NCBI GenBank assembly: GCA_973895155.1
Contig: OZ316896.1
Coordinates: 2,790,001-2,854,000, forward strand
DNA length: 64,000 nt
Origin: Marsupella aquatica
Taxonomy: Eukaryota; Plantae; Marchantiophyta
Reading direction: 5' to 3'
This document shows, piece by piece, positions 1-39,608 of this stretch (its first letter is position 1; each line of letters starts with the position of its first letter). The notes below the pieces were generated by a model that saw only the letters and a list, made by a program, of their open reading frames with translations, was not told the DNA's origin and made no database searches. A program made the translations under genes and the position numbers.

Positions 1-320
1 TATTATACATGAGTTTTCATTATAATTTGACTCAGCAATGTCAAATAAAAAATTATTGCCGGGAAAATTTTATATTTTGAATAAAATCAAAATGTAAATA
101 AAACCATTACTTTTGTCTTTTGATTTGCATGTCAGTTTTTGTTACATTCTTTTTTACGGCATGATATCCCAGTTTTTACAACAAAGTTGTCACAAACACG
201 AATGCAAAAGTTAATTCTATCCAAAAACAAGTCTCTTCCTGTTTGCAACGTGCCATGATGATGTGGTGCACTGTGGAGCCAGGAATTTTGGAAGGACCCC
301 TAATGGGGGTCTGTAAACAT
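1..320 (-). repeat. Diverged partial copy, in inverted orientation, of the TE-like repeat at 20893-21732 and 22714-23543
   Basis: gccaggaattttggaaggacccctaatgggggtctgtaaa (278-317) and acaaacacgaatgcaaaag (~192-210) match the reverse complement of 20893-21030. Confidence 0.7.
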
Positions 321-2711: not shown

Positions 2712-3657
2712 TGAAGATTAATGGGACTTGTACTAAATGTACTATTGAGTGTCTCTTTTGACTATTTTCCTTAAAAGTGTTTTATCCATAAATTGTCATC
2801 AAGAGTCCCAAATTAAGAACTTGGATTTAATGTAATCAATACAAGTCCAAAGGGTGACACTTGTAAAAACTCTTCATCATTAATAAGATTCCTAGACCCA
2901 ATATTTAGGTCATTACTTAAGAACATCATATTTGATAAGGATACATGAATATATATATTATATCTAATTATTGACAAAAATTTATGTCATTTTTATAAAT
3001 TAATTATGATTATTTTTTACAAAAATTGTAAAACTTTTTTTTAAGTTAATTTGAATCGATAAAAAATATTCTATATGTCTTAAGATGTATACCATAAAAA
3101 CTTGTGTGCATCATTTTTGGTTTTATAAATTATTTTTACTCATAGTACACAACTGGTTCAAGGTATTGTTTCTTAAGATTATACCTATTCTTATAGTGGC
3201 CTAACCTTGAACTAGTGGTGTAATAGGTGAAAACAATTTAACAAACCAAAATTGATGCACACAAATTTTATTGGAATATATTGACTTATTAAATATTTTT
3301 TATCAATTGAAATCAATCTTAAAAAAAGTTTAATATTTTTTGTAAAATCTAATCATAATTAATTTATAAAAATGATATAAATTTTTTCAATAACTAAATA
3401 CAAGATATATATTCTTGTATCTTTATTAGACATAATATTTTTAACTAACTCAGACAAAAGGTGTGAAATGTTTTTCATGAGGGTGAACTTGTCTTATATA
3501 CAAGTGTCATACTTTGAATTTGTGAGTGGTTATATTTAATTCAATCCAATTTGGGTGTCTCCATGAAAATTTATGAATAAAACTAATATTATCTAATAGA
3601 AACAGTTCAAAGAAACACTCAAAAATTACATTTGAATCCCAATTACATTAATCTTAT
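2712..3657. mobile_element. AT-rich foldback element with long inverted repeats (MITE/Mutator-like), arms of about 450 bp
   Basis: Arms at ~2712-3165 and ~3205-3657 are imperfect reverse complements, e.g. tcatttttataaattaattatgatta vs taatcataattaatttataaaaatga, ttgtgtgcatca vs tgatgcacacaa, gttcaaggt vs accttgaac; no ORF. Confidence 0.8.
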
Positions 3658-4244: not shown

Positions 4245-7235
4245 ATTGAACTTTTAAAGGACGCTCACTGTCACTTTGATCAGGAAACGATGAGAGGATA
4301 GATAAACTGTCGACAAGGACTGAATTGGTGCTCTGCTAATTCTGATTTTCTACACTCAGGGCTGTGGATTGTCATGAGCTCCACTGACCTTGTCCATATT
4401 AAAAGTGTAGATCATACTCCGAAAGCAAATTGGGAGTGGTTTAGAGATATGGATTTGCAGCACATCTTGGTGTCCGATCTGTATACAGAATTCCATGAGA
4501 GAGTCATTTCGTCAACTCCTGTCCTATTTTACTACTATCACATATCAAATGCGGGATCGAATGTTAAAAAATTTACATAAGAAACTGTCCGGGTACGGTT
4601 TGCTTCCAAGCATAGTAAACGAACTTCGGGCGTACTTCAGCTTCTCTCCCAATATGTTTCACATGATTTCTATTCTGATGATATACTATATATGTTCCGG
4701 ACAACAGTGCACAAAAGTCGGCTATGGCAGCGATTCGATCCCGCAAAGTTACTGTATTGACCTGCACTGTCAACAGCTTTCGATGGTAAATATGTCTTGA
4801 CCGTAGGCTGCGTCTGGAACACTTCAATCACAAGCTTCTCGAAAGCTGCAATTGATCCAGACCGTTAGGCAGTAAGCTATATCTTGCTAGAAAATGGTGG
4901 AAAAACACTACTGTACGTAGCTTTCTCGATCAGACAGAACATGGAATGTACGCCATCGCTGGTCATATATGCTACCTTCCATCTGGAAGCACACTATTCA
5001 ACGATTTACAGGGTACTGCTGTTAAAAGAAAAGTAGACGAAAGATTCATCCATCCAAACAATGATGGACGATTTACCAGTGATCAAGTTGAGACTATCGT
5101 ACTCTTGTACGTCGTCATTGAATTTACAACTCTCCTTATATAATTATATAGATTTGGCAACAACAACGAATTAATAGATATTGTAGAATCGTCCCGGAAT
5201 ATATGAAGGAAGCTAGCACAAAACCTGGCCACTCTCAGTATGTTAATCGCAAAGCCACTAGTTCCCAACCTCGATCATTTCATATCCAAGGCACCTCGAT
5301 CTAATCCTATAAATTGCAGGATCGAGGAACTCTTAAATGACAGTCTGCTTTCATTACACTCGGTAGCCCAGAACCGATCATTCATTGAAGCTTACTGTAA
5401 ATCAAATGTGATCGAATCGTTGGGATATATAGCCGGAGCGTAAGCTAGTTCTCCATGTTATAAGTCATGGAGAACTTTTAAGCAAAAGTGGGAGCTTTTG
5501 GTCGCCAAGGTGCGAGCACCTTAAGCCAACCTGTGGACACGTCTGCAGATGGCCCTGGCCTTAAAAACATCTAAAAGAGAAAAGAGATTGTTGATGATAA
5601 GATTATCGAGTGGATCTAAAAAAGAAAACAGTGTAACACCATCACCTTCCTCGGTTCTGAGCACTTGGTTCCAGTAATCCAACTAGAGCTCCTCTTCTCC
5701 AGCCATATGTTGTGTAGATCTCAATTCTTCGTTGGAGACAGATTTCACAGGCCATAAGAGTCTGATCCCTCAGTGCAAACGACCTTCAACCTTAACTGGG
5801 ACGTCGGACTAGTGGTCCGATACTTCCTACCATGTTTGGCGTAAGTAGCAGTGGTGCGATATTAAAGGCGGAGCTAGGAGGTCAACGATGGCGGTTGCAA
5901 ATATTCCATCTAGTCCTTTCACCTCGAGCTCAACCCTTCTTATCGCACCTGTGCTACATCCAAAGCAAAGAGCGACTAATAAAATGCAATGTATGCATGG
6001 ACTTGAGCTTCCACAATAAGTCACCCACACCCACAGAAGGAAGAATGCAGCTCAAGTGAATTCAGAGGCTTCACCAGTCATCCGTTGATTTCGTGTCCTG
6101 CAGTCCATCAGAAGCTGAGCTCAACATTTCAGAAGATTAACTTCTGATAGAGTCCAGGTCAGGAACTAGCAGGACCGAAATTCTGAGAGGCTTTAAATCC
6201 CAATCCGTAAATTTCAGTTCCTGCATTCGACCAGAAAGATAAGCAAAGTTTCAGAAAGTTACGTTCTGATGCAGTGCAGGACAGGAACTCGATCACGAGG
6301 CGACCTAATTTCTGGCTTCGAAGGGATTCTGAGTACTTCGTCCCATCCCCGGCCCGTTCGATCAACCTGTCCGTCGCACGCTGGAAAGACCAGTCGGAAG
6401 AACCGCTAATTAAAGCGAGTTTCAGGCAGACATCGCTATTAGTCGATCAAGACCCCCATCAAGACCATCAGCAATATGATCTCCTATTGAGATTCCAACA
6501 AGAGTCGATCTGGCATGGGATGCGATAGAGCTTGAGTCGACATTGGTTGGGAAGAAGTGACGGAAATATTCGAGAAAAGAGCCAAAGATCTACCTTACGC
6601 ATGCCCTTCAGGAGAACGACCTTTTCGCTTCTTTTCATCGTTACTTCAAGTTGCTTACGTTCGACTCAGCGTTGATGAATTGAAAATCGTGCAGACAAGC
6701 CCTTGCAACTGTCTTGCTCGTGGAGCGCAAGATGTTTCAAGCTGTCGCCCTCTACTCAAGGTAGCTCGACGGTGTACACATTCGTGAACTACGCTGAACA
6801 CTCCAAAAGGTTGAGCAATATGCATCATCAAAGCCAGCACCTCCCGACCTACTGTAGCGAGTGATCGACGGTGGTAGCCAACACCTTTAGCACCCAAGAT
6901 TTCAGCTCTAATGCACAACGAGCCCAAGATCGAGCTGTACTGCAGACGGTAGAGCGCATTTGAAATCGGACAAAAGTGAAGGTGAGGTATCCTGCAGGTG
7001 CAAATGAATATCATTTCACAAACATTGACAGCGATCAAGGCAAGACAGATCAAAGTTGAACTTACAGAACTTCAAGGCACACTCTAGTGCATGCAGTACG
7101 TGTCGACGTATCTTCGGTCCCAACGTCAGTCTGGGCTCTGAGTATCGACCTTCACATCCCTCCCGCGCTCACATGAACATTTGCCATCGATCAACTTGAT
7201 GCACTCTTGCCGGCAAACAGAACACACCATATATG
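4245..7235 (-). ncRNA. Putative spliced non-coding Pol II transcript (pri-miRNA candidate), paralog A
   Basis: Colinear inverted homology to 17030-20027; conserved TATA box at 7257-7264; conserved polypyrimidine-AG acceptor at 5571-5572; no frame-preserving ORF shared with the paralog; contains the hairpin at 5835-5964; transcript ends are inferred. Confidence 0.55.
5835..5964 (-). ncRNA. miRNA-precursor-like hairpin A
   Basis: 5' arm GTAGCACAGGTGCGATAAGAAGGGTTGAGCT (5957-5927) pairs with 5845-5875 at 26 of 31 positions, with two symmetric 2x2 internal loops and G:U pairs on this strand; basal TTTGG/CCAAA stem. Confidence 0.7.
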
Positions 7236-7256
7236 CAATACAAGCAAATGCCGTTC

Positions 7257-7605
7257 TTTATATACTATCAAGACTTGAAAAGATCGCTAGAGGAGTTCTG
7301 AAAAATGGGGACAGTTTGGGAAGCCTGTGCATAGTGACTATTGAACGCGCGCTGTTCGATCAATTCCGATCCCGTCATCGTCCGGCCGTTGTATCTGCCA
7401 ATGGCCAGAGTTAACTGAATTACATAAGACCATCATGAGCTCTGTCGCCTTGTCTAGCTGTCGCTAACACTCCGTATCAACGCTTTGGCTGTTTGGCAAC
7501 AACAGCAAGACTAGCCATCCTAGCATGACATCCTAGCCTCGTCCCCAATCTTGTATTCAAGTCGTCTCCCTGAATGTTCAAAGGCTTCGACGTCACGGTT
7601 GCGTA
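7257..7605 (-). promoter_or_regulatory. Promoter of paralog A: TATA box, two TGTCGC motifs and a TTACG..TGACG pair
   Basis: TATATAAA on the - strand at 7257-7264; tgtcgc at 7443 and 7459; cgtca at 7591; same order as in 16674-17006. Confidence 0.55.
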
Positions 7606-10232
7606 ATCCAAAGCTATAGGGTAAAGGTACTAGGTTTTGACTGGAAGTCTCCTTTCGAAAAAGGCTTGGGAAGTGCGTATGACGTCATGCCAGCCACTGC
7701 ATGAATCATTTTGCCGAGTAAAGGTCCAGCTACGTTATAGCAAGAGTCGTAGGAAACTATTGCACTGACTGATGGCGTACTGTATCCGAGGTCCGACTTT
7801 TTGACATGTCCGCGCCGTGCCAGTTCCGAGAAAAGCCCATCAGAAAATCTGACGGTTCACAAGACACCTGCCTAAATAGGAAAATTGTTAGCCCTGAGGA
7901 TAATGTACACTCATAGCATACACTCTTGATTATTACGTTTGCTCGTAAACTTCCTCCACAATCTTACCTGACCTTGTCAGCATGTAAGTGAGAGACATGT
8001 GTGCATGTGCACCCAGAAGATTGATCCGGCGATTTTGGTCGATGAGCCAAATTTCGTTTGTCCGCGCTGCGGCAGGCAGCGAACAGTTGCAGGGCAGTAG
8101 TAGCTTGCTAGCTAGCGAATGCTCTGATGTAGGCTTGAACATGCCTAATATATATAAACACATTGACGAGCTCCCTTTGTAGCTATGAGTCTCCAAAAGT
8201 TAGTTAAGTTGGAACGTGGCTACTTAATTTGAATCAAAAGGTTATTTATTCTAGTTAGCTTCCAAATTAACCAATGCAAAAAATCAGCCAAGCCCTGAAC
8301 CAAAAGTCTATCAACGAAGGAAAGAACTTTCAATCGATCGACATAACGCGAGAATTTGCATCAATCTTCCGTTCATACAAAATTGAATGCTACTAAAATC
8401 AAATTAGCAAAGTGATGAATTCTCGGTTTCAATGAGAACAACGAAGACTGCTGCACAGTACGTTCTACGTGTGTTTCAACTCAATGCTGCTTTGTTTAGT
8501 GTGCACTCATCCAATCCCGTTGCCGTATTCCCGAGAGACTAGAGATGGGCTCCATTCCTTCTATTGCAAATTAAGTTTTTGAACTGGTCCGAGGAGGGGA
8601 CACTAAATTTGAGCACCTAGTATATTATTCCTTTTAAGATAATGAATGCGAGGTTGATACTGTGTCCGACTGTTCGATAAAGCGATCTTGACTCCCGTCT
8701 TAACTGTCTAATGAAACACGTGAGTATGTCTACTTTAGTCGCGTCTGGTTGGAATTTGAACTCTACTAATAAATCAATCATCCATACCAGAATTGCACAA
8801 AGGCCAACGAACGTAATTAATTAATTCTCTTTGGAACTGAGTATGATTTCGAAGTCTACCGCCGAATTGTAAACAAAGGCAGGCAGCTAATCAGTTGAAG
8901 TGTCTTGAAGTCAACCCTGCCACTCATTTCGGGAAGGATAGGTAAAGGGAACTATTTCCGCTGAACTCAGAGTGGACCGGACCTGTCTAGCTAGCTTAGT
9001 GGAAAACATTCTTGATATTTTGTTGTAGATCATCTTGAATTTGGAAACAAGGGGGGTACTTTAAACCACACCTGCCTGTAGCTCTCATTCTAAAGAGTAC
9101 AAGTTCAGAAATGTACTTTGAGCTCCACAAAAGGTGCTGATTGTAAAATCGTTTTTTGGACTCCACAATAGGTGCTAATGTTATGTTAGTGTTCACCTTT
9201 TATGGTGAGTAATGAGACATAGAATGAGGCTTTTATAGTGGGAGGTGTGGTTTAAGCCAAAATAAGGTTCGCATAGCTTTTGAAAGGTTCTCAATTCAAA
9301 GACAGCAAATCTTAATCCGACGGTATCCTAAATCAGATTACTCCATGTGGAGTGCCTGGATCGCAAAATTCTCTAAGAACACTTGATTTCAATGCAAAGA
9401 GATAATGAATGGACGCTAAGAAGACGTACCGGCCACTGCTCCAAATATCATTTGTTAGTCCAATATAACTAAGAGAGTAGATGGTCCCTGGAGATATCTT
9501 TGTTGTCATACGGTCAATCGGTACAGAAAAAATTAATTCACTGCCCCAATGATACTGACCCGAACGTTGTGGACGGGATAATGCATTGACTTCATTGTCA
9601 CAATCCAAGATCTAGCGATCGGAAACAGGTAAGAATGGGTTTGATATGTACTGTCAAGTTCTAGTGAACTCTAGTTTTTAAGTTGGAGCACGAAGTGTAG
9701 CTCGATCCACCGAGTGTTGTGCGTTCTCAATATTCTGACATGAAGTTCGCAATGGTTTTACTACGTTTTTTGAACATGATGATCATTATCAATGATACTT
9801 AAAATATCTGAGAGAGAAGGCAGCTACGACAGATCAAAAGAAATGATTATTAAGCAAAATCAAGCTCGAAAGTGCACATAAGAAAGGTAGGTGCTTATTG
9901 TCTTCCGAGAAGGCCCCAATGTTGAAATTTATATGCTTAATTAGACGCGTGCCATACCTTCCAATGTTGGCAGAATTTCGTTGCTGCTTCCAAGCACTTC
10001 TTTGACCTTTAGACATATATAGGACAAAATTTAGAATCGAGGGCTTGCCAGAGTCATGTTCGACGAGCTCCGGATCGATAATAGGTTACATTTAATTTGT
10101 GTTTGTCAGCATCTGAAATTTCTTTCTTCAAACCACGACAACCCAACCGGCGCTACTGTAGTGACGGAGTTTTAAGTCCCGCGTGGTTTTTGAGCGTCAC
10201 TTGTGACGACTACGAGTACAGTCTCCCTTAGC

Positions 10233-15620: not shown

Positions 15621-16673
15621 ACTCCTGCATCTGGAAACTCTCGACAATCTAAAGCGGTCGACCGAGCGAAGAAAACTAAGAAAAGCAGTGTTCCGGCTAC
15701 AAATTCAATTTCCCAACATATCTTGAATCATAATTTTTCGTCAAGATTGGTAGTCAGCGGTGAGGTCGTTGATGGTGGGATGCCAAACTCATCAGGCCTG
15801 GAGGAGAGTTCAGATTGAACGACCCAACATCGGATTCTTTATTAACGGACCAGCACAATGAATTACAACAAAACTGCATAAGTTGTCCTCGAATCGATCA
15901 CTTCACGAAAACGAACTTTAATCGAGCAAAATCTTTGCTGTAATTTGCAATAGATTTGGCTACAGCGCGTAGGGCTGGTCTCCCTATCAATCGGGCTATC
16001 AATTCCGGTACCTTCGATCCAGGCACACCAACTGATCGATCGAACTTTTGGAGGCCCATTCAGTGTTCGACAACTCGCAAGCTACTCGTGCTCCCGAGAT
16101 TTAGCGTGGACACTGCAACTCAACTGTCCGCCTCTCGTGATCGATCTCTTGGGTGCACATCCATCCATAGATGTCCCTTCTTTGTAGTCATGCCGCTGAG
16201 GTCGGGGTAAGGTTATAGACAGCGAGAGAGTTTTCGATTTGTAGTTATTGTTTTCGTGCTTGTTTTGAGGTCCGTCAGTTGAACAGTTCCGTTAATGAGA
16301 TCGATGCAAGAAAAACCTGACTGTAATAGAAGAAATGTTCGCCGTAGGACTTATCATGCGCTGAGAGCTAACAGTTCTTCCGTTACATCGAGTTTTTTCT
16401 TCGCATCGATCTCATCATGGAAGGACTCGATTTTCCGAATTGGTTTTGCTCGGAACTAACTTGCACGGGGCGCACACACTTCGGTTCCAAGTGCCGACAA
16501 AAGAGTCAAGTAAGTCTTGCTTAGCACCTAGAACTAATATTGCGTAGGTAGAGTTAATTTTGCTGCTATGCCGCCATGGGCTTTTCCCAGGCTTTGTTTG
16601 CGAGTGTACCTGTATAAAATTGCAAGATTTTCGGTCAAAACCTACGGTGATACCTTTCACCCTCTAGCCTGAC

Positions 16674-17006
16674 TTACGCCATCATGACGTCAACGCCGTT
16701 GAACATCCAGGGAGACGACTTGACGACGGGTTAATTCGGGTCTACAGTCAGCGACAGACGAGGGTTAGGGGGTCTCCTGTTAGCGACAGACGGGGCGCCA
16801 CATTGAGCTTATTGTGTGGTCTTACTTTCAATCTGTTAAATCTAGCCGTTGGCAGCTACAATGGCCGGAACAATGACGGGATCGTACACGCAAAAGAGGA
16901 ACCAATAATCAATTTGATCGAAATCGACAACGGGGCTCAATTCCGGAGACGTCCCCTCTCTCTAGAATTACTCTAGCGACCTGTTCAGGTCTTGAGAGTA
17001 TATAAA
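16674..17006 (+). promoter_or_regulatory. Promoter of paralog B: TTACG..TGACGTCA, two GCGACA motifs and a TATA box
   Basis: ttacgccatcatgacgtca at 16674-16692; gcgacagacg at 16751 and 16783; TATATAAA at 16999-17006; aligns with the paralog A promoter. Confidence 0.55.
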
Positions 17007-17029: not shown

Positions 17030-20027
17030 TCCTGTGTTCTGTCCAGAGCACATCAAGTTGCCGATGGCAAATGTTCCTCATGTGAGAGAGTGACGGAAGG
17101 CATGTGAACCTCGTCGATACTCAGAGTCCAGACCGAGGCTTGAGACCGAGGATACGTTGACATCAGCAAGAGACCTCTTCATCACTTCTGTCCGATGCCA
17201 ACTCGTGTCTACTGGAGTACAGCTCATGGACAAGCTGAATTCTTGGGAGCTAAATTAAGGCGTTCAATGGCTATGACGTCGACTACTAGGGAGGGTGCAG
17301 TTTGCTGATTACATGGCTCAACCTTTGATGCTATCCATGACTCAACCAATTTGTTTGAGTGCTCAACGTACCTTGGCGAATGCCCACACCGTCGAGCTAC
17401 CTGCTGGAGAGCGAGATCCAGGTTCAAAAATCGATCGGAGATCGATCGTCCCCGGCCGCGAGCAAGACAGTTCCAGGGGCTTTGCGACATTTATCTGCGA
17501 GATTTCCAATTCATCGACACTGTCAAATCGAACTTCGGCAACCTGAATTAAGGAGAGAGAAAAGAAGGGAAAAGGTCGTTCAATCTCCTGAATGGTATTT
17601 GGTTCTTTTCTCCAGTATTTCCGTCACCTTATTCTAATTAATGTCGACCCCGCTGCAATGCTATCCCAGGTCGACTCTTGTTAGGGTCTCGATAGGAGAT
17701 AGGATTTGTGGATGGTCTGGATCGACTAATCCAGTATTGATGTTTGTTATTGATATTTGTCTGTTTGGAAACCGGGTGTAGTGAGAGGTTCTCCCCTCGT
17801 ATGATCTGTTCTTTTCATCGTGCGCGGGGAAGGTTTCAGGTCGAACGGGCTTGGATCGGACGAAGTGCTACTTGGATGTTCTTTCGAAGTGGGAATGGAG
17901 GTCAGTGTGAGTTCCTGTCTTGCACGTACTCCATCACAAACTAATCTTTTAAAATGCTGAGCTTTCTATAAGAAGGTAATCTTCGGATACGCTACTCAGC
18001 GTTCGTCTAAGAGGGCCCTGTGATGGACTTTAGGACAAGAAAGTAACACATGGGTACTTAAATCCGTGTGAATTCCTGTCCTACAATACATCAGAAACGA
18101 ATCTTTTAAAATGCAGAGCTCAGTTTCTGATGGACTGCAGGACACGAAATTAACGGATGGCCGGGTAAAGCCTCTGAATCCACTTGCTCCTTGTGTTCGT
18201 GAGTTGTACAAGCCGAAACTCAATTTTCTCCATCGTTTTTCGTGCATTTTTGCTTTGGATGTAGCACAGGTGCGATAAGAAGGGTTGAGCTGGAGATGAA
18301 GAGCAAGACTTACTACATATATATCTCCTCATCGCTGCTGCCACTTCATCTCTTGAGATCTGTACGTTAGATCACAGCGAAATCCAGGATTGAAACCAGA
18401 ACAGCCATATATCTCTGACTTCTAGCTCGGCCTTTGATATCGCACCAATGCTACGGACGCCAAACATGGAGGTAACGAACTGCTAGGACTGATCACTGAC
18501 GGATCAGACTCTTCTGACGGCGTGTGAAATCCGACGTCGCCAACCAAGAATTGAGACTACACAACATATGGCCGGAGAAAGGAGCTCTACAGTAGTTATA
18601 CTGGAACCAAGCTCTCAGAACCGAAGAATTAAGGTGATGTTCCACTCTATGACCTAGCATGAACGATCTCTTTTCTCTCGCAGGTGTTTGACACCCATGG
18701 TCATCTGCAAGACGTATGTACAGGTTCGCTTACGGTACTGGCACTTTGGCGCGCAAGCTGAGCTCCCACTTTTAATTAAAAGTTCTCCATGATTGACGAT
18801 GACATTCAGAACTAGCTTAGTTAGGCTCTGGCCATCCGAGCAATCAGTTATGATTCAGAGTTATCTGCCAATGAATAATCGAGTCTGAGCTACTGAGTAC
18901 TGTTAATGACGATCGAGCGTGACCATTAATATTCAACTACAGTCTCTCCACTGAATGATCGAGTCTGAGCTACTGAGTAGAGTGTCATTCACTCATTCAC
19001 CATAAGGTGTTTGAGTCCCTCGATCCCTCGAATTTATTACATTAGATCGATTCCCCTTGAATTGGATATGACATCTCCTGGATCATGCACAGGTTGACAA
19101 ATAATGTCATTTATATCATATACTGATCGAGAGTGGGTTTTGTTCTAGCTTTCTTTCATGTAATGTAGGACATGCTCTACCAAATCTATTTGTTGTTGTT
19201 TCATCGATCGTTCGGATTCATGAATGTTAAATTTGGTCTAGTTTTCGGTGAACAGTACCCTGTAAATTTGTACTGCCTTGTTGAATAATGTATCATGACC
19301 AGCAATGGCGTACAGCTCAGCTTCAGTGGTGAGAAGACTTCCATGAGTAGTCAATCCTGTCCTTCCATCAGTTTTTAGCTAGCTAATAGCTTCCAACTAT
19401 CAGTACCTGACAGCAGTCTAGCCCATGACCCAAGTTCATCGGCAAATGGTATGACCGAAGTATGACGAACACAGCATACGGTCCACCAGAATTTACAATC
19501 TAAAATTGCTGAGAAAGGCAGGTCAATAGTATGGTAACTATGCAGGATATGTCGCTGCCATAATTGACGGTTGTGCATTCTTATCCTACCAAGAATGTCA
19601 TCAGAAAACAAGGTTATGTGAAATTGTGCAGATAAGCTAATAAAAGTTCGTCTTCAGGAGCGTGTCAATATCGGTAGCAAAACATTTGATGTGTGAAGGG
19701 AGTAAAATACGATCAGCATTTGATTAACTGACTCTCTACGGACATGGAATATTATATGCAGATCGGACACCCTGATCAATCCTGTCAATTCATGGCTCTA
19801 AGCTACTCATAGTTCAGCATTCTGGAAAGCTACATTTTCAAAATGAAATTTTTTGGACTGCATTCGGAGTATGTTTTAATATTTTTTGATATGGAGCAAG
19901 GTGGTGAACTCCAGAGCCTGTAGGAATTCACATCCAGGAAAGAACGCCAACTAACTCTTTGTACTTCACATCTAAGTTAAAGCTCTGATCATGTTCCGAT
20001 CCCAAGTGACAGTGTCCTTTAAATGTT
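17030..20027 (+). ncRNA. Putative spliced non-coding Pol II transcript (pri-miRNA candidate), paralog B
   Basis: Colinear inverted homology to 4245-7235; TATA box upstream; conserved acceptor tctcttttctctcgcag ending at 18683; contains the hairpin at 18254-18464; transcript ends are inferred. Confidence 0.55.
18254..18464 (+). ncRNA. miRNA-precursor-like hairpin B
   Basis: 18261-18295 pairs with 18420-18454 at 31 of 35 positions, with no bulges, two symmetric 2x2 loops and five G:U pairs; basal TTTGG(18254)/CCAAA(18464). Confidence 0.75.
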
Positions 20028-20763: not shown

Positions 20764-20892
20764 TGCAATGAGGGCTGGCCCACAGGGCCCGGGGGCTGAG
20801 AGGCAAGAGAGGGCAAGTGGTAATCGAATCGAATGGATACAAAAATCCTCTAAAATATCTAACGGCCAGTTTTGATTCTCGCCAATTCTGTA

Positions 20893-21732
20893 TTTACGGA
20901 CCCCACTAGAGGTCCCTTCCAAAATTCCTGGCACCACAGCGTGCCACGTCAACAACAACCGCAACAAACAAGACTCGTCGGTTTTGTGAATCAAATTTAT
21001 AGTTTTCATTTGTGTTTGTGTCAATTTGGGTGTAAATTTTGGGACGCCATGGCGTAAAAAGAAAAGTAAAAACATTGGAAATACAAAGAGCAAGACGGTT
21101 AAAACTATCACTATGTAACCGTTTTAGTTACATTTCCAATTTTAAAACTTAAATTCAAAGATTTATAAAAATATTTTTCATATAATAAATAATGACTAAT
21201 AACTAACTTGATAACTTCCTTGTTAAACCGCAACTCCCGGTATGTAAGGACCTCTCATATTGTACGGCCATTAATGTTGGGAAGAGCACATAGAAACCCA
21301 GGATCGGGGAGGAGGAATGGTTGGAATCTTGAAAGTTCATCGAATTTTATACTCAAAACTATTTACTCATTCTCAAAACAAAAAATACCCAGTCGTAGAT
21401 CTCATTGAGATCTTTCTTTTGCACCCTAGATCGCTTTCTAACATGGATGAATAAGATTTCTAGAGGCATTACAAAATGGACAGCAAAGATCGTAATATCA
21501 ACAAAATCGATGGCTAGGAAAGCTTGGATTTGTTTAATTTTTCATTTGAAAAATATTAACCCATTTGCAAAACGGACAGAACCCATCCATAGATCTATTT
21601 GAGATCTTTCTTTTGAGTCATAGATTGGCCATTATGATGGACGAACGAGATTTCCGGAGATAAGAAATGAAAATGGCTCAGATCGACTCTTCCCCCTGAT
21701 TTTATTAACCAAGGGGTCCACGAACTAATTCA
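20893..21732 (+). repeat. TE-like repeat unit of about 830 bp, copy 1 (MITE-like or Helitron-internal)
   Basis: Highly similar to 22714-23543; begins ggacccc and ends ggggtcc (short inverted termini). Confidence 0.85.
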
Positions 21733-22713
21733 TAACGGGATGAAGAACGAAAAAAGGCGGGATCACTTATTATAGTTGTAGATTATATCATATTTTAATA
21801 TCTTTACACTCTTAAAAACATTTATGTACAATATATCCTACATGAATAAACATCAATTGAAGGAGTATTAACAATGAAAAGAAAATGTTTACTTATTGAA
21901 TTGTATGATTTTTAATTTAAATAATTAATATTAATAATATTTGTTAAAATTTTAAAAATAAATTTATAATGATGAATGATTAATATTTGTTATATATATA
22001 TATATATATAATTTTTATAATTTTTAAATATAATTTTATTCATGAATTAATTTAACATAGTAATAATTAAAAATTAATTAAACTCAATTTTAAAATATTT
22101 TTTAAAAACATTTTCATTGAGAAGAATTTTATGTTTAGTGATCTAATTATATTGTGAGTATTCACAAATTAATCTCAATGAAATGTTTTAATAATTATCT
22201 TTTAAATGAGTTTAATTAAATTTTAATTCTAAATATTATTTATTTTTGAATAAATTTAAATATTTCAATTAATTATTATAAAAATATAATATTATTATTT
22301 ATAATAATTTTTTAATTTATATCATAATTTATAAATTTTAAGTTTAAATAATATTATTTTATTTTATTGTAAGAATGATATACTTTAATAAGAACTATTT
22401 TAAATTTTATTATTTTGGCTTTGTAAATTCAAGGATGTTTAAATCATAGAATCAAATAGATATGAAATTTATCAAACAATGATATTGATTAGGTTCTTCA
22501 TTTTGCATGATTCTAAACCATTCATTCTAATGTATATATACCTTTTGTCCATGGTTGGAAGTAAATTCTTTCAAATTCTGTTCCCTAGGAGGTGAAAAGA
22601 TGACATGGATATGGAGGAACTCATGGTGAAACTGGGTCCAAGCAATATCTTTCCAAGGTTTGAGTTACTTTCCTTGATGTCTAATTGAACTCCAAGTTCT
22701 AACAAATGGAGAT

Positions 22714-23543
22714 TTTAGTTATGGACCCCACTAGAGGTCTCTTTAAAAATTCCTGGCACCACAGCATGCCATGTCAACAATAACCGTAACAAACAAGACT
22801 CGTCGGTTTTGTGAATCAAACTTATAGTTTTCATTTGTGTTTGTGTCAATTTGGGTGTAAATTTTGGGACGCCATGGCGTAAAAAGAAAAGTAAAAACAT
22901 TGGAAATGCAAAGAGCAAGACGGTTAAAACTATCACTATGTAACCGTTTTAGTTACATTTCCAATTTTAAAACTTAAATTCAAAGATTTATAAAAAATAT
23001 TTTTCATATAATAAATAATGACTAATAACTAACTTGATAACTTCCTTGTTAAACCGCATCTCCCGGTATGTAAAGATCTCTCGTATTGTACGGCCATTAA
23101 TGCTCGGAAGAACACATAGAATCTCAGGATCGGGGAGGAGGAATGGCTAGAATCTTGAAAGTTCATCTAATTTTATATTCAAAATTATTTACTCATTCTC
23201 AAAACAAAAAATACCCAATCATAGATCTCATTTGCACCCTAGATCGCTTTCTAACATGGATGAATAAGATTTCTAGAGGCATTACAAAATGGACAGCAAA
23301 GATAGTAAAATCAACAAAATCGACGGCTAGGAAAACTTGGATTTGTTTAATTTTTCATTTGAAAAATATTAACCCATTTGCAAAAGGGACAGAATCCATC
23401 CATAGATCTATTTGAGATCTTTCTTTTGAACCATAGATTGGCCATTATAATGGACGGACAAGATTTCTGGAAAAGAAATGAAAACTACTCAGATCAACTC
23501 TTTCCCCTGATTTTATTAACCAAGGGGTCCACGAAACTAATTC
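22714..23543 (+). repeat. TE-like repeat unit of about 830 bp, copy 2
   Basis: Direct repeat of 20893-21732; termini ttagttatggacccc and ggggtccacgaaactaa are imperfect inverted repeats. Confidence 0.85.
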
Positions 23544-26500
23544 AGGAGCTTTCAAACAGAAGTGCATTCTGGACCTGAAGTATGTTGCGGTCTAGTCTAG
23601 AAGTCGATCTTGGTTGGTAGAAAAAACTGTTAGTAGTGGCTGATGTGCAAGTGAAGAAGCCAAGATAAGATGCAATTTGGCCCACCGTCTCCATTTCTTC
23701 AACATGCATGTGCATATCCAGGGGAGTTTGAGTTTCAATGTTACTACAAAGAATAATGGAAAGAATATAGGAAGAGATCGAGCCTCGAGCATTGAATACG
23801 ATATCACGGAAAGTAAACTCCATACTTACTCCGCTTTTCTCTATTGTGTTCGTTTTCGCGGTTCGTTTCTCTTTTTGAACATTGTCTTCGGAGGCTCTAC
23901 GGTACTAGGTTTTGGAATTATGAAACATCCAATGCACGGACCAACGCATGTCTGGACATTCAGCCGATCTGAAGCAAAAAGGTTGTACAGTGACTCGTTT
24001 GACCAGAAAAATCATTTTATAGGCACAAAAACGATCCGATTTGTCGATTCTCGTGATGACTAGGATCAGACCAGTCAAAGAATCTGAAGTCAATCGTGTT
24101 GACCTCTTGTAAGGGTACTGTATGGTTTAGAAACACTGTAATGGCAATGATTTCTCTCTCCATCGATACTCCACCGAGCATCTTTTAGAGTCTTTCAATC
24201 CTCCTGGTCAAAATAACTTCCAAAAATAGGCTGGAAGGCTACGTATGAATGTAGGGAGCTCTTGCAGACGTGGGTATATATATCCCGCTAAATGATCATT
24301 CTGCTCATATTTAGAAGGGAAAAAATTCCGGGAGCGGAAGGCCAGGCAGGTAAAGTGCTGGCCTGATCCGTACATTTTTGAGTCAGCAACCGGAAATTAC
24401 GAAGATTGGTCAAAGCTGGGAGGAGTGTGAGATGGTGTGGGCTGTGGACCTGTCCGAATCTTGTCCGAGAGACTTGCAATCGGTTTTCGTGGTGCGGTCT
24501 ACTCTTTCTGGGCAGATGTTTATCTCTTTGCCTTTCTTTTGGTGGTTGTCCACTCTCTTTAATTCCATTGTACTCTACTTTGTTTGTCCTTTTTGGAAAT
24601 TGGTCTTTTTTTCATTTTCGTGACGGATGATCGTGAATCAAGTTCGCCCTTCAAGGCAAGCAACGTGTAGCTCTCAGTTTCGTCAAAGAATGAATTAAGT
24701 AGGTTGTTACTCCGAAACTATGGTACAATACATTCCAATTGTTTAGGGTCACAATGAGTACAGCCATGCGAACAAAGTTTTAATATCATACAGTCATTTT
24801 GGTCTTAACTTGAGCTTCTTTCAATGCCAAATCAATAACAAAGGAGAAGGTTATCGGAAACGTCATTACTTGAGATGTCACAGAAATGTACGCATTCTAC
24901 AGTAGCCGACCAAGTAATGTAGACTGACTAACTTTTGAACTATCTTTGAAAATATGCTTGACACACAGACTGAGACTTTGATTCTGGAAAGTAGTGGTGA
25001 AAATCGAAACCCCCTCCTGTTATTAATTATGTGAGCTCGCAAGCTTGGAGGTGGGTGCCCCAGAATATGAAGGATCCTTTGCACTACATCTAGGACTTTT
25101 CATGGATGTACACATCACTATGGTGCGAATCAGATTTTCTGAAAGTCTTCTCCATGTTCTCTTTCAAATAATTGACTCTAGTTGCCTTTACAATGAATCA
25201 TTACGTACGTATATGGAAAAAATCGATTGCAATAAGTAAGCAAGTCCAGGAGAGGGAGGGATGGAGAACGAGAAGGTCTACAGAATGATTTAGTGGTATG
25301 TCATGCAGGTCAGTAACGGAACAGCATCTACCATTGCGGATGTGTTGACCGGAGACTGCTAGAGACATGTTTCCAAACTCGAACAGGAATCTTATTCCCT
25401 GAGAGTGCGAGACGCCGAACTCCCACAACCTTATCTGGGACAGAACTATCGGACCATTTGATCTACGTAACTTCCTGTCAGTGAGACTACTTCAATATAT
25501 ATTTCTGCTGAACCAATTTGGATACGTACGTGACCTGTGATACATTCTCTGAAACTTCCACCCAAATACTTGTTTCGAACGACCTGCTCCTGTACTCGAG
25601 GCATCGGCCATTGTCCCCGCCTTTGTCCAGGTCGCGAGAGGTTGCAACTAAGTAAGCTGCAATCGGACGAATCGCAGGGTCTTCTATGACTCCTATTCGA
25701 GAACCATCTCTAGAAAGACGGCGGAAGATAGAACTCTTAGGCCAATGAATGTACTGATTGTCTAGAAACTTGCTCTCAGTACAAAATTGCCACAGAAAAA
25801 GACGGTCCTTGTCAACGACTACCGCACCACTACCAGTGGATAGATTTCCAGAGAGAACCCCCTGGGTAGTTCAGTCAGTGGAATCACAGTAGAAGTTATC
25901 AGATCGTTCCGCCTTTCGTGCTTCATTTTTTGCGGATGTTGCATGCTTGAAGAATTGGCAAGTACACTCACTTCAGATATCTTTCCTACCAAGGTGCAAA
26001 CTCATGGAAGGACTGGGGAATTTCGTAGATGAGCTGTGACGCCTCCGATTGGGGAATGACTTGCCATGTACGTGAATGACTCAACTGGAGTCAACGTAAC
26101 GCATGAGAGTATGTGACATACATCTGACTGACACAGAATGAAATCTTACTTTCCGCACGGGTCAGGTACCGTACCTAAGAAACGAAGGATGTGCTTTAAT
26201 TCAACATCAATACTATTGAGCTTTAACTTTAAGCTCTGCTTTAGTTCTACTGGTTATCCGTAGGCTCCAGTTAGACTAAACAAGCATGACAACTTTTGCT
26301 TCTTTGTGTGGACACTTTCTCCACCATGTCTTGGATGGCAGTGTGGAATGCCGCACATACTTCCCTTTTACCACATAGTTGGCGTTGTGTCACCCTACTT
26401 TAGATGATCCCTTGAGAAACCAAAGACAAAGACGGGGGCGAGCGAAAATTAAGTCCAAAGAAACTAAGGACGTACAAATTCAGGAGTACTATCCCGTCCC

Positions 26501-26865: not shown

Positions 26866-30732
<3,867 letters not shown>

Positions 30733-32685: not shown

Positions 32686-33113
32686 TCAATGTATATTAAA
32701 ACATCTCAGCTTGAAGATTGGGTGTAGGTGTTGAGCAGGCTATACCAAGATAGTAATGGTATAGATAAAGGTATCGTAAAACTAATCTCATAAGAGCAAT
32801 TTCCAACCCAAAATGTGAACACAAACTCAAAATTGACCTCTCCTAAGAAAGGTCTCAATCCAATAAAGGCAAGTTGCCATGGACAAAGAGAATGAAAGTT
32901 ATTGTTACCTCTATACACGTCCCAAGCGAGCCCATGGAGAGACACATCTCCCCTACACCCTCCTCCAATGCTCACAATTTTTTGTTGCTCGTATTTTTGT
33001 AAAAGAGAGATAGAGAAAGGCGCCACACGTCCGCCCTTCCCAAACACATCAATGTTTTAAAACAATACCTGGCCTATACCTCCATACATGTGAAGTAAAG
33101 TTATAAAACCACT

Positions 33114-33457
33114 TGTTGAGCATAGACGACATTCACAACGGCAAGCCCATGAACCATCCAACGCACAATAGTCGACACAGAGAGATACGTGGTTCACCTC
33201 CACATGAGGCTACGTCCACGGGAACACACAAGAGCTTTACTGCACTCTAGGCCGACCGGCCATACCAAGCATCCACAGCACAAGCTCTCCCTATCTCTCA
33301 ACTAGCTCCGTAACAATGAGCCTAAGTTCCACCAGGGTCTGGCATCAGCCCTGGCTATATGCACAACAGCACTACCGCTAAACTTAGCTAGGTCCTAACC
33401 CAAGTTAGCCTAACTGTGGTTAGCACAAGAGTCACAAGACTAGAGCAATATCTTACA
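33114..33457 (-). repeat. 3' LTR of the copia element
   Basis: tgttgag...tcttaca; 5 mismatches to the other LTR by manual count; adjacent PPT aactccccct at 33458-33467 (AGGGGGAGTT on the - strand). Confidence 0.97.
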
Positions 33458-33664
33458 AACTCCCCCTTGACTCTTGTCTTGGGGACTGGACTAAATGCTA
33501 TCATATGGAATCCTCAGCGGGAAGTTCTAGACAATCACCAAACCAGGTCTCCCCCTAAAAACCACAAAGGTTAACTAAGGGTTAACTAGAACTAAGTCGT
33601 AGCCTAACAGGAATGAGTAATCCATATACAAATAGTCACACATTGCTAAATAACTCTACTTGCA

Positions 33665-36600
33665 CTACAACTGCAAAACCTGCAAAGTAGCACGGTGTCT
33701 TGAGAAACTCTCCAAAGGAATCACTTTGGTAAAGGCATCAGCGGGATTGAGCTTTCCATCAATCTTGACTAGCTCAAAAGTTTTATCAGACACTGTTTGC
33801 CTGATAAAATGGTACCTGATATCAATGTGCTTCACCCTGCTATCCATCACCTGGTTAGCAGCCAAGTGAAGAGCACTCTGACTATCACAGTTTAGAGTCA
33901 TTTTTCCATGCTCTAAACCCATCTCCGCGATCAACTTATCCAACCAAATTGCTTCCTTTGCAGCTTCTGCTGCTGCAACATACTCTGCTTCTGTAGTAGA
34001 CTGAGATATGCACTTCTGCAAGGTAGATTTCCAACTGATACATCCTCCTCCAAGAGTGTATACAAACCCAGTTGTAGATCTCCTTGTATCCAGACAGCCT
34101 CCATAGTCAGAATCTACATAGCCAACTAACGTTCTATTTGATCTGTTATCAAATAGTAATCCATAGTCCTGTGTTCCCTTCACATACCTGAGAATCCATT
34201 TCACAGCTTCCCAATGTACCTTCCCTGGATTTGACATGAATCTGCTAACCTTGCCCATCGCTAGGGCCAAGTCAGGCCTAGTACAAGTCATCAAATACAT
34301 CAGACTGCCTACTGCCTTCTCATAAGGAATCTTAGCCATCAGACCTTTCTCCACAGCATCCGTAGGAGAGAAAGCTGATGATAACTTGAAATGTGAAGCT
34401 AAAGGAATACTCACTGGCTTACAGTTCTCCATGTTGAATCGTGCAAGTACTTTCCTCGCATACTGGCCTTGACTCAAGCACAACTGTCCAGTCTCAGAGT
34501 TCCTAAAAATCTCCATCCCTAAGATCCTCTTGGCCTTACCAAGATCCTTCATCCTGAATTCAGCGCTCAATTTCGCCTTGAGACTCTCAACCTCAGATTG
34601 ATCTTTAGCCACAATTAGCATGTCATCCACATAGATCACCAGAATGATGAAACCAAATACATCATTCTTGATTGATTTTGTATACACACAAGGATCATAC
34701 ACCATCCTTGTAAAACCTTGAGCAAGCTTGAAATCATCAAACCGCTTGTTCCACTGTCTGAGAGACTGCTTCAATCCATACAAGGATTTGAGCAATCTGC
34801 AAACTAAGTTCTCTTGGCCCTTCTTCATAAAGCCTAGTGGCTGTCTCATGAAGATCATCTCTTCCAAGTTGTCATAGAGAAAAGCAGTAACAACATCCAT
34901 CTGATCCATCACCAGATTAAAAAACACAACAAGCTGACACAAGATCTGAATTGTGGAATACTTAGCCACCGGTGAAAAGATCTCATTGTAGTCCACTCCT
35001 TTCTCCTGAGTGAACCCCTTGGCAACAAGCCTTGCCTTGTAGATCTTATCTCCACCCTCTGAAGGACTGTCCTTCAACTTGTAAATCCACTTGCTGTCCA
35101 CCACTTGCTGACCTCTTGGAAGCTCCACCAGCTCCCATGTCTTGTTGTCACTCAAAGATTGCAACTCCCTCTGCATTGCTGCCTTCCACTCATGCTTATG
35201 CTCTGAAGCACAAGCCTCACTGTACGAAGAAGACTCTCCTTCTTCCAAGATCAAAGCCATATCATCATCATCAGGTGCAATGTCAATGTCATCTAGCTTA
35301 GATGAGTCTGCCCATTGACCATACCTGGTAGGAGCTCTAGTAGAACGACTGGAAGTTCTTCTAGTAGATGACTCAGGCTGATTTGCTGCTGCTGCTGGTT
35401 GAATTTGAGGTACCCTAGCAACAATCTGCTCCTCTTGTTCCATCACAGGAACCAGCTCCAAGCCCGGAGCTTCTCCACCTCTCCTGTCATGAACTGCATC
35501 ATGACTAATCTCCCCCTCAACCGGGTCCGGGATGGGAGATTTCCCCTTGTCAGTATGGGAGTCCTGAGAACTCTCCCCCTCCTTTGATGATCTGGACTCA
35601 TTAAAGGACACATCTCTACTGACAATTAGTTTACAGGTTATTGGATCCCATAACCTATAACCCTTCACACCTTTCTGATAGCCAAGGAAAATGCACTTCT
35701 TCGACTTGGACTCCAGCTTGGATCGAAGCTGGGAAGGTGTAAGCACATAAGCATCAGATCCAAAAATCCTCAGATGTGAGTAATCTGCTGGACGCCCGTA
35801 CCTCATTTCATATGGCGTCTTGAATCCAATAGAACTGGATGGAGAAAAACTTACCAAATAAGCTGTAGTGTTGACAGCTTCAGCCCAAAACTCATGTGGT
35901 AAGCATGATTGACTCAACATACTCCTCGAGCGGTCCAACAGTGTTCGGTTGAGTCTCTCAGAAACACCGTTCTGCTGAGGAGTATAACTTGTTGTGAGAT
36001 GGCGGGTTATCCCCTGCTCCTTACAATACGTTCCAAATTCCTTGGAACTGTATTCACCGCCATTATCCGATCGTAGATATCTCACCTTATTACCAGTCTG
36101 ATTCTCAACTTGGGCTTTCCACTCCTTAAAAGTGGCAAAAACATCAGACTTATTGTGTAGAAAATATATCCACACATACCTTGAGTAATCGTCTATGAAT
36201 GTGACATAGTATAATCGTCCAGAATGTGAGGGAGTAGGGGCTGGACCCCACACATCACTATGTACATACTCAAGTACCTCCTTGCTGGTGTGAGTTCCAA
36301 CTCCAAAGGGTTTCCTGTGCTGCTTCCCAAGCACACAATGCTCACAGAATTCCAACTTACAAGATTGCAAATTAGAAAGTAATCATTTCTTCTGAAGAAT
36401 AACCAAACCTTTTTCACTCATGTGGCCCAAACGGAAGTGTCACAGCCGGGCCGTCTCCTCATGAGATAAGGTTACATTGGCTTCATCACAAACTACACTG
36501 CCATCCAAAACGTATAGATTGTTATGTCTCTTTCCCTTCAATACAACTTTAGTACCAATTGAAACCTGAAGGACACCATTAGCAGAACTCCACTGATGGC

Positions 36601-37938
36601 CATTTGCTTCTAAAACTCCAAGTGAAATGAGATTTTTCATCATACTGGGAATATGTCTCACATTCCTCAACGTTCTTACAACACCATCAAACATCTGAAA
36701 TCTTACAGATCCAAGTCCAACAACTTGACATGGGATTCCATTTCCCATTAACACTGACCCGTTGGAAACCGTGTAAGAACTGAAAAATCTCTCCTAGAGC
36801 AAATGTGAAAAGTACAAGCACTATCTAGAATCCAATCATCACTACCTGGATTTGACACTACATTGAGAGCATAACCTTGGCATCACAATATGCCATCATC
36901 ATCGAGTAAATCTACCTCATGCGAGCTCGATGCCTCGTTAGCAGATGCAGTAGGGACCTTTACTCGACAATCCCTTTTCATGTGGCCAGGCTTGCCACAA
37001 TTCCAACATGCAAGAGGCTTCCTCTCTTGCGATTTCCCTCTGGATTTAGATCTCCCCCGTGATGTAGATCTAAACCTGTTCTGCCCATTCGTGCGTTGCG
37101 TTGCTCTGCCTCTGTTCACATTGAGCGCAGTGCCAGAAGAAGATGCTGTCTGTGATTGACCCAGCTTCTTCTGAGCATCATCAGACAGTAAAGAGCTTAC
37201 CACCTCATTATACGAAATGGACTTCAGATCTCTGTACAAGAGCACCTGTTTCAAGCCCTGATATGATGGCGGTAAGGAGCTTAGCAGAAGCAAGGCCTTA
37301 TCCTCATCTTCAACTCCTTTTCCCAGGTTTGACAGATCAACCGCTAGACTGTCAAACTCATCCAGGTGATCCTGCATCTTGCTCCCTTCCTTGAGCCTGA
37401 GGCTCATCAAGAGAGACTTCTTGTACAGTCGGTCTGACGCATCTTCCCGGTAATACTTCTCTCTTAGAGCCTTGAACAGTGACGCGCAATCCGCATAATC
37501 ATCCAACTGCTTGATGATGTGCGGCTTGAGATATAGCATCACTGCATTGACAGCAATCACCTGCTCCTGTCTCCATTGCCTCATTGAAATCTCCTCCTTT
37601 CCATCATATTGCTCTCGCGATGAAAGCAGATGAGCTAAGCTCATGGCCCGTAGAACACCTTTCACTTGTTTCTCCCAGAGCAAGTAATCAGTACGACCAT
37701 CGTACTTCTCCACCTCAAACTTCACTCCTCCAAATCTAGCCGTCTCCCTCTTCTTCCCTACTACCGACAGCTCTAGTAGTAACACAGCTTCCTCCACTGC
37801 ACGCCGCACCGGTGATCATACCGGTGTTATAAGTTCCTCCTCAAATGGTAGCAGCTCCTCCTCAGACTCTCCGTCTGACCGTCGCGATCCTGAAGCTCCA
37901 CCGACGCCAATTCTTCTAGTATCCTCCGAGTCACTCAT
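33665..37938 (-). pseudogene. Copia gag-pol polyprotein, disrupted
   Basis: Zinc knuckle CWNCGKPGHMKRDC, protease WILDSACTFHIC, integrase HSDVWG/RSDNGGEY/GVSERLNRTL, RT YVDDML, RNase H YVDSD/TEAEY; in-frame TGA at 37816, 36883, 36440 and 36383; 1-nt frameshift at ~36785. Confidence 0.95.
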
Positions 37939-39596: not shown

Positions 39597-39608
39597 GCTC
39601 TGATACCA
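39597..39608 (-). promoter_or_regulatory. Primer-binding site for initiator tRNA-Met
   Basis: TGGTATCAGAGC on the - strand, 2 nt inside the 5' LTR. Confidence 0.95.

What the first reader, a model, noticed from the sequence alone, without database searches (positions are those of the whole stretch)
18249..18465. Candidate new two-member miRNA family: hairpin B with a 43-nt block identical to its paralog
Seen: 18261-18295 pairs with 18420-18454 (31 of 35 positions, no bulges, two 2x2 loops). Five G:U pairs favour the + strand, which agrees with the TATA orientation. TTTGCTTTGGATGTAGCACAGGTGCGATAAGAAGGGTTGAGCT is the longest identical block I found between two otherwise indel-rich paralogs. Inference: a mature 5p miRNA such as UGUAGCACAGGUGCGAUAAGA or UAGCACAGGUGCGAUAAGAAG. 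From memory it does not match miR156/529, 160, 166, 171, 319, 390, 408, 530/1030 or 536, but it could be an already catalogued lineage-specific miRNA. Caveat: the block overlaps an acceptor-like tttgctttggatgtag|cacag| sequence, which could contribute to its conservation or couple splicing to processing.
Basis: partly seen in the sequence, partly recalled or inferred. Interest (0 to 1): 0.85.

Follow-up and report, generated by a model that had tools for sequence, protein, structure and literature searches.

The report
Liverwort microRNA cluster: miR8169 plus miR8177
This hairpin contains, letter for letter, a 21-base small RNA already sequenced from the liverwort Pellia (pen-miR8169, whose precursor that study did not find), and a neighbouring hairpin carries a near-copy of a second one, so it is likely a duplicated two-microRNA gene shared by distant liverworts rather than a new family.

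Summary
The hairpin and the 43-nt block are real, and a paralog lies inverted at 5969-5830. The family is not new. Bases 18271-18291, and 5947-5927 in the paralog, match pen-miR8169 of Pellia endiviifolia at 21 of 21 positions (PMC4368373 Table 2). The block ends at that RNA's 3' end. About 125 nt upstream, on the same strand in both copies, a second hairpin carries pen-miR8177 at 19 of 21. The Pellia study reports northern signals for both RNAs but lists no precursor or target. The window is from a liverwort closest to Calypogeia among named proteins. Best reading: a duplicated, probably dicistronic MIR gene, with hairpin B cut base-to-loop. No RNA data exist for this organism, so expression, processing and targets are inferred. 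One bolder lead: the lower 5' stem resembles the star arm of Pellia MIR536 (exact blocks of 10 and 8 nt), so miR8169 may have arisen from a MIR536 hairpin. Verdict: new member of a known, poorly described kind.

The parts
18271..18291 (+). Predicted mature miRNA, 5p arm, TGCGATAAGAAGGGTTGAGCT, identical to pen-miR8169
   Evidence: 21 of 21 match to PMC4368373 Table 2; 19 of 21 positions paired
18426..18446 (+). Predicted miRNA* (register for 2-nt 3' overhangs)
   Evidence: Computed from the fold; 2 mismatches at mature positions 8-9, 3 G:U pairs, no bulge; not observed as RNA
18254..18464 (+). Hairpin B fold-back; lower stem 18254-18270 with 18445-18464, 17 nt below the mature 5' end
18249..18291 (+). 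43-nt block identical between paralogs: lower-stem 5' arm plus the mature miRNA
18126..18146 (+). Predicted mature miRNA of hairpin A, 3p arm, homolog of pen-miR8177
   Evidence: 19 of 21 match in both paralogs; lies in the second-longest identical block, 26 nt
18062..18158 (+). Hairpin A fold-back
   Evidence: z -4.48 on +, -8.29 on -; 16 of 21 mature positions paired in the lowest-energy fold
17905..18050 (+). Degenerate tandem copy of hairpin A; miR8177-like stretch starts at 18019
   Evidence: z -4.02; 3 mismatches over 16 nt; repeat seen
16999..17006 (+). TATA box, probable Pol II promoter of this copy
   Evidence: Conserved in both paralogs; start site not tested
5927..5947 (-). Paralog: second exact copy of pen-miR8169
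   Evidence: 18 of 21 positions paired
5830..5969 (-). Paralog hairpin B; star 5873-5853; 53 nt between mature and star against 134 nt in the other copy
6092..6112 (-). Paralog: miR8177 homolog, in a tandemly repeated hairpin region with alternative folds
7257..7264 (-). Paralog TATA box; the two copies point away from each other, 9.7 kb apart

Best explanation
Hairpin B holds an exact copy of the Pellia small RNA pen-miR8169 and is likely its microRNA precursor in this liverwort, probably transcribed together with an upstream miR8177-type hairpin from one TATA promoter, the whole gene being present twice in inverted orientation. Shown: the sequence matches, the predicted folds, the order TATA - hairpin A - hairpin B in both copies, and the conservation pattern. 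Inferred: Pol II transcription of one non-coding precursor; a first DCL1 cut 17 nt above the stem base (18270/18271) and a second 21 nt further up (base-to-loop); loading of the 5'-U 21-mer into an AGO1-type protein; and silencing of a conserved mRNA target that is still unknown.
For: Exact 21 of 21 match in both copies, 0 matches in 100 shuffles at up to 3 mismatches. The identical block ends at the published 3' end. An independent second match, 19 of 21 to pen-miR8177, lies in the second-longest block, on the same strand, 124 and 144 nt upstream. The paper reports both RNAs as dominant 21-nt clusters with northern signals and mean counts of 52,738 and 24,212, chosen from clusters present in at least one in vitro library. 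The duplex has 2 mismatches (3 in the paralog) and no bulge. Between paralogs the 5' arm differs at 1 of 47 positions and the 3' arm at 6 of 50. A 15-17 nt conserved lower stem and a variable miR-miR* distance (134 vs 53 nt here) are the published marks of base-to-loop precursors (bioRxiv 10.1101/129684 passages). In contigs of organism B, none of 25 listed substitutions and 4 indels falls in the mature or star sequence, and the two in the stem keep pairing (18420 G:U to G:C, 18453 U:A to U:G). No reading frame is shared between the copies: aligned blocks carry stops and frame shifts.
Against: The organism-B result is weak alone: by hand, about a 13% chance of missing those 42 nt among 611. 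One paralog-type contig (X3 record 10) has one difference somewhere in 18249-18291 that the table does not place, and 9 pieces were not shown. No compensatory double change was seen between paralogs; one change turns a G:U pair into a mismatch (18429). Hairpin A is less clean: it folds better on the opposite strand in this copy (z -8.29 vs -4.48), has competing folds in both copies, and one organism-B contig differs at 18141 inside its mature sequence. In Pellia itself neither RNA has a listed precursor, star or degradome target, so their miRNA status there was provisional. The host lineage rests on one gene, with no Pellia protein to compare.
Confidence: 0.85

Rival explanations
1. Hairpin B descends from a MIR536 hairpin: the old miR536/miR536* duplex became the lower stem, and the product switched to the 5p arm just above it. 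It may be cut sequentially, releasing a second phased 21-mer (18250-18270). This adds to the best explanation rather than replacing it.
For: Pellia MIR536 primers and the text of Fig. S6 show a basal 5' arm that shares, read by eye, a 10-nt block (18253-18262) and an 8-nt block (18269-18276) with the window, 8 nt apart in Pellia and 6 nt apart here. That gapped pattern occurs only in the two paralogs, and 0 times in 100 shuffles (pattern chosen after seeing the match). The 43-nt block is 1+21+21 nt, and the upstream 21-mer starts with U. Table S3 places a Pellia MIR536 5p read at 4..25, which on my reading of the figure text ends one base from the equivalent of the miR8169 5' end.
Against: The 3p counterpart (18440-18460) matches Marchantia miR536 at only 8 of 21 ungapped positions by hand count, and it differs between paralogs at 3 of these positions. 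The upstream 21-mer would sit in a duplex with a 1x4 asymmetric loop, and an organism-B haplotype changes its third base (18252). No Rfam MIR family matched the hairpin at E up to 10. Only one MIR536 precursor was compared, and not by a tool alignment.
Confidence: 0.35
2. The hairpin is an inverted repeat or element-derived fold-back that yields heterogeneous siRNAs, and the Pellia RNA comes from such a locus rather than from a true MIR gene.
For: No precursor or star was listed for pen-miR8169 in Pellia. The window holds other palindromes and fold-backs.
Against: Identity is concentrated on one arm and stops at the mature 3' end. The paper reports one dominant length class per cluster. The stem is short and imperfect, and sits downstream of a conserved TATA box in both copies.
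Confidence: 0.06
3. The block is conserved because it contains a splice acceptor, or because of recent gene conversion between the inverted copies.
For: A T-rich stretch and two AG dinucleotides lie at 18225-18269. Pellia MIR genes often have introns upstream of the hairpin. Inverted neighbours can convert each other (general knowledge).
Against: Neither explains the exact match to a Pellia 21-mer or the second match in hairpin A. Splicing at either AG would remove most of the lower stem, whose 3' partner is conserved. The acceptor pattern did not flag the site in either copy.
Confidence: 0.07

Closest known systems
pen-miR8169 of Pellia (Apopellia) endiviifolia (Alaba et al., PMC4368373, Table 2)
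   Same: 21 of 21 nt identical; starts with U; its 3' end coincides with the end of the conserved block.
   Different: The Pellia study lists no precursor, gene, star or target for it. Here it sits in a full hairpin, in two copies, in another liverwort. Papers on Arabidopsis also use the name miR8169 (listing only); that these are unrelated RNAs is recalled, not checked.
pen-miR8177 (same paper)
   Same: 19 of 21 nt, first 16 identical, in the 3p arm of hairpin A in both copies.
   Different: Two 3'-side differences; extra degenerate tandem copies here; no precursor or target listed in Pellia.
pen-MIR536 precursor and the miR536 family
   Same: Exact blocks of 10 and 8 nt in the basal 5' (star) arm, at the same place in the stem.
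   Different: The miR536 sequence itself is not kept on the 3p arm (8 of 21 by hand); the conserved product is on the 5p arm.
Polycistronic MIR loci of bryophytes (Mpo-MIR390/MIR11676; about 25% of Physcomitrium miRNAs; PMC9291395 passages)
   Same: Two unrelated hairpins close together downstream of one promoter.
   Different: Different miRNAs. The Pellia study found no clustered hairpins among its 10 characterised genes; co-transcription here is inferred.
Base-to-loop plant precursors such as MIR172a (bioRxiv 10.1101/129684)
   Same: Conserved 15-17 nt lower stem; variable distance between miR and miR*.
   Different: No sequence relationship; a 1x4 internal loop interrupts the lower stem here.

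Membership tests
pen-miR8169 family | Mature sequence identical or nearly identical to the published 21-mer | tested here: met
   21 of 21 in both copies
pen-miR8169 family | Precursor homologous to the Pellia precursor | not testable with these tools
   Table S3 lists no precursor for it; no Pellia genome is held
pen-miR8177 family (hairpin A) | Mature sequence within about 2 mismatches, in one arm of a fold-back | tested here: met
   19 of 21 in both copies; fold, less clean than hairpin B
Plant miRNA gene (annotation criteria recalled from Axtell and Meyers 2018, not read here) | Fold-back under 300 nt; miR/miR* duplex with at most 5 mismatches and at most 3 nt in asymmetric bulges | tested here: met
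   211-nt fold-back; 2 mismatches, no bulge; paralog 3 mismatches
Plant miRNA gene | Precise miR and miR* reads with 2-nt overhangs, in replicate libraries of this organism | not testable with these tools
   No RNA holder listed; published evidence covers the mature RNA in Pellia only
Plant miRNA gene | DCL1 dependence, AGO loading and a cleaved or repressed target | not testable with these tools
   No genome held; no target outside the hairpins within the 64 kb at score up to 6.5
miR536 family | Mature 3p sequence close to miR536 | tested here: not met
   8 of 21 ungapped, hand count of 18440-18460 against the Marchantia sequence
miR536 family | Precursor homology | tested here: inconclusive
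   10-nt and 8-nt blocks shared with the Pellia star arm, one precursor, read by eye
Any Rfam 15 family (MIR, snoRNA, other) | Score at or above the gathering threshold | tested here: not met
   Only a tRNA in the whole window; sub-threshold hits only around both loci
Polycistronic MIR gene | Both hairpins on one primary transcript | not testable with these tools
   Same strand, 124-144 nt apart, one TATA box, no AATAAA or AATGAA between them; no transcript data
MITE-derived hairpin or siRNA locus | Terminal inverted repeats, target-site duplication, high copy number | not tested
   Two copies in the window; genome-wide copy number not available

The most novel reading that the evidence does not exclude
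miR8169 is an ancient liverwort microRNA born from a MIR536 hairpin by arm switching and a shift of register, with the old miR536 duplex surviving as its lower stem. It has stayed unchanged, in a cluster with miR8177, since the split of the Pellia and leafy-liverwort lineages, and so guards a deeply conserved, still unknown target.
Probability: 0.3. Interest if true: 0.7.

Novelty: new member of a known kind. Interest (0 to 1): 0.45.

Why it matters
Two small RNAs reported from Pellia without precursor or target gain a candidate gene, which turns them from orphan reads into probable true microRNAs and links them in one cluster. A 2022 review counts only three liverwort-specific miRNAs shared between Pellia and Marchantia. 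An unchanged 21-mer shared between Pelliidae and a probable member of Jungermanniidae (fossil minimum 167 Ma; molecular estimates of about 300 Ma are recalled) implies a conserved target. With the mature sequence now fixed, that target can be sought directly in liverwort transcriptomes and degradomes. The MIR536 resemblance, if it holds, would be a traceable case of a new plant miRNA arising from an old hairpin.

Tried and rejected
Genome search: no whole genome is held, so there was no copy count or target scan beyond the window. Sequencing runs: no RNA holder listed; the four runs laid are contigs of unrecorded kind. Rfam: no family at threshold; the mir-205, MIR774, mir-3132 and snoRNA hits are far below their cut-offs. 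Marchantia lists: no motif match in miRNA or precursor columns of the Lin et al. supplement (two hits lay in target-mRNA cells; long cells are cut and file 1 was not searched), and no match to the miR8169 or miR8177 motifs in 12 of 16 files of PMC11799827. Tsuzuki et al. 2016 is not held. miRBase and PmiREN could not be searched. Metagenome scan for the exact 21-mer: 0 matches. Earlier findings of this scan: nothing relevant in 3 look-ups. Protein coding: rejected, no shared frame between the copies. miR536 target or target mimic: rejected by hand pairing, because the unpaired bases fall on the miRNA side. The other 40 of the 42 Pellia sequences were compared with the conserved blocks by eye only, with no convincing match; a computed comparison was not run, so weaker matches may be missed. 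Field contamination as the source of the Pellia RNA: unlikely, since candidates came from clusters in at least one in vitro library, but per-library counts were not seen. A dated split for Pelliidae and Jungermanniidae was not found in PMC4124468 passages.

Full report
OBSERVATION. The stem is as described: 18261-18295 pairs with 18420-18454 at 31 of 35 positions, with five G:U pairs and two 2x2 loops. It folds at z -4.72 on the + strand against -2.80 on the - strand. Among 1064 tiles of the window only 4 have a stem of 25 or more pairs, and two of them are this hairpin and its paralog. The paralog lies inverted: self-comparison gives blocks of 67-78% identity from about 4430-7650 to 19810-16625, and the alignment has 70% identity over 2117 ungapped columns. 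The 43-nt block 18249-18291 is the longest identical run; 0 of 20000 column shuffles reached it. That test ignores uneven divergence: at 85-90% local identity such a run would not be surprising.

HOST. An exon of a replication factor C gene in the window matches Calypogeia fissa best (99%, best 120 of 3300 hits listed). Its variable first exon is 78% and 75% identical to the two C. fissa proteins, against 50-64% for the Marchantia, Riccia, moss and fern proteins and at most 68% for the unnamed ones among the 15 compared. A search with that exon returned only the two C. fissa proteins at E up to 1e-12. So the window is from a liverwort, probably a leafy one (Jungermanniidae), and not C. fissa itself. 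No Pellia protein was available, so a Pellia-side origin is unlikely but not excluded. Calypogeia and Pellia (Apopellia) belong to different subclasses, with a fossil minimum of 167 Ma for the split.

IDENTITY. Table 2 of Alaba et al. (PMC4368373) lists 42 new Pellia small RNAs. pen-miR8169 equals window 18271-18291 and 5947-5927 at 21 of 21 positions, with no other match at up to 3 mismatches and none in 100 shuffles. Its 3' end is the last base of the 43-nt block. The second-longest identical block (26 nt at 18125) contains a 19 of 21 match to pen-miR8177 in both copies, in the 3p arm of an upstream hairpin. The paper states that all 42 RNAs gave northern signals and a dominant length class, and gives mean counts of 52,738 and 24,212 for these two; I did not see the blots or size plots. 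Neither appears among the precursors of Table S3 or the degradome targets of Table 6. In the supplements each number occurs only in the Fig. S5 labels and the probe list.

ANATOMY. Both copies read TATA box (16999; 7264), about 0.9-1 kb of patchily conserved sequence with no shared reading frame, a tandemly repeated hairpin A region, then hairpin B 124 or 144 nt after the miR8177-like sequence. In hairpin B the predicted star is 18426-18446 (5873-5853). The duplex has mismatches only at mature positions 8-9, plus position 16 in the paralog, and no bulge. The stem begins 17 nt below the mature 5' end. The 5' arms of the paralogs differ at 1 of 47 positions and the 3' arms at 6 of 50. Four of these six lie in loops or at the helix end, one breaks a G:U pair and one lies in the upper stem; none is compensatory. 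The spacer between mature and star is 134 nt in one copy and 53 nt in the other.

RELATIVES. Four runs hold the region, none on record as RNA. Organism B carries the window's form and a diverged form. Over 17890-18500 the table lists 25 substitutions and 4 indels, pooled over alleles and paralog contigs. None is in 18271-18291 or 18426-18446, and the two in the stem keep pairing. By hand this has about a 13% chance of occurring anyway, so it is agreement, not proof. Against the reading: 18252 changes in one haplotype, one paralog-type contig has an unplaced difference within the 43-nt block, one contig differs at 18141 inside the miR8177-like sequence, and 9 pieces were not shown.

MECHANISM. 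A conserved 15-17 nt lower stem and a variable miR-miR* distance are the published footprint of base-to-loop processing (bioRxiv 10.1101/129684). I therefore infer a Pol II transcript carrying both hairpins, a first DCL1 cut at 18270/18271, a second 21 nt higher, and loading of the 5'-U strand to silence an mRNA. All of these steps are inferred. No target was found within the 64 kb, and no genome is held. Hairpin A is the weaker half: it folds better on the opposite strand in one copy and has competing folds in both.

THE MIR536 LEAD. Primers and the figure text for the Pellia MIR536 precursor show a basal 5' arm that shares a 10-nt and an 8-nt block with 18253-18276, spaced by 8 nt there and 6 nt here. 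The gapped pattern occurs only in the two paralogs and in 0 of 100 shuffles, but I chose it after seeing the match and compared by eye. The 3p arm no longer encodes miR536 (8 of 21 against the Marchantia sequence). Descent from a MIR536 hairpin with an arm switch is therefore plausible (about 0.35), while membership of the miR536 family is not met.

WHAT IS KNOWN. Of the 10 papers that hold the names miR8169 or miR8177 or the mature sequence, only the Pellia paper holds the sequence; the other nine were seen as listings only. One paper holds both 'Calypogeia' and 'miRNA', and it is on annexins (listing only). No Rfam family matches. Marchantia lists gave no match to either miRNA in the files searched. 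Subscription papers, Tsuzuki et al. 2016, miRBase and PmiREN were not searchable, so a later description of this gene cannot be excluded.

PAPERS SEEN. PMC4368373: abstract, sections 15, 17, 18, part 1 of 2 of section 19, passages, parts 2 and 4 of 7 of supplement 1, and term searches of both supplements. PMC4788410: abstract, sections 6 and 12, term searches of the supplement archive. PMC9291395: section 6 and passages. bioRxiv 129684: passages. PMC11799827: passages and term searches of 12 of 16 supplements. bioRxiv 2021.10.28.466308: passages and section 41. PMC4490709, PMC13738684, PMC10721683, PMC5569507, PMC4124468: term passages only. No figures were seen as images. The annotation criteria for plant miRNAs are recalled.

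VERDICT. This is likely the genomic precursor of an already published liverwort small RNA, in a duplicated cluster with a second one. It is a new member of a known kind, useful to specialists because it supplies the missing gene, the correct mature sequence and evidence of deep conservation. Interest 0.45.

Noticed in passing
window 63323-63415 (+): A separate hairpin with 26 contiguous pairs, z -4.91 for the 240-nt tile; could be another miRNA precursor or a small inverted-repeat element.
   Followed up: partly
window 7099-6992 (-): A GT...AG intron-like stretch of about 108 nt in the paralog that is mostly missing from the 18-kb copy. Both copies also share donor-like (18633; 5646) and acceptor-like (18683; 5571) sites downstream of hairpin B.
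   Followed up: partly
window 16625-16990 (+) and 7650-7270 (-): Conserved promoter blocks upstream of both TATA boxes, including TGACGTC and AACGG-type motifs that resemble bZIP and MYB sites (labels recalled, not tested).
   Followed up: no
window 17050-17720 and 18490-18900, with paralog 7190-6450 and 5770-5360: Many further conserved blocks of 13-17 nt between the paralogs that neither hairpin explains; some fold into stems in only one copy.
   Followed up: partly
contig X3 record 10 and an X4 contig, laid on window 18090-18186: A paralog-type haplotype in organism B appears to carry an extra tandem unit of hairpin A (joint going back 60 nt), so the number of miR8177-like units may vary.
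   Followed up: no
window 33108-39955: LTR retrotransposon with 351-nt terminal repeats 98.6% identical and gag- and pol-like frames on the - strand; Ty1/copia type by domain order (recalled, not searched).
   Followed up: no
window 41971-45622 (+) and 41570-41770: Replication factor C subunit gene, preceded by a partial duplicate of its first exon.
   Followed up: partly
window about 27600-30700 (-): Exons of an aspartic protease-like gene, recognised by eye from the translations.
   Followed up: no
window 2714-3655 and 21878-22401; 20891-21732 with 22716-23544: Two long imperfect palindromes, the second flanked by an 840-nt direct repeat of 92.7% identity; probably fold-back elements.
   Followed up: no
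window 48097-48168 (-): tRNA gene; the anticodon reads UGG (Pro) by eye.
   Followed up: no
window 41041-41280 (-): A 35-pair stem formed from short tandem repeats upstream of the RFC gene; z only -2.37.
   Followed up: partly
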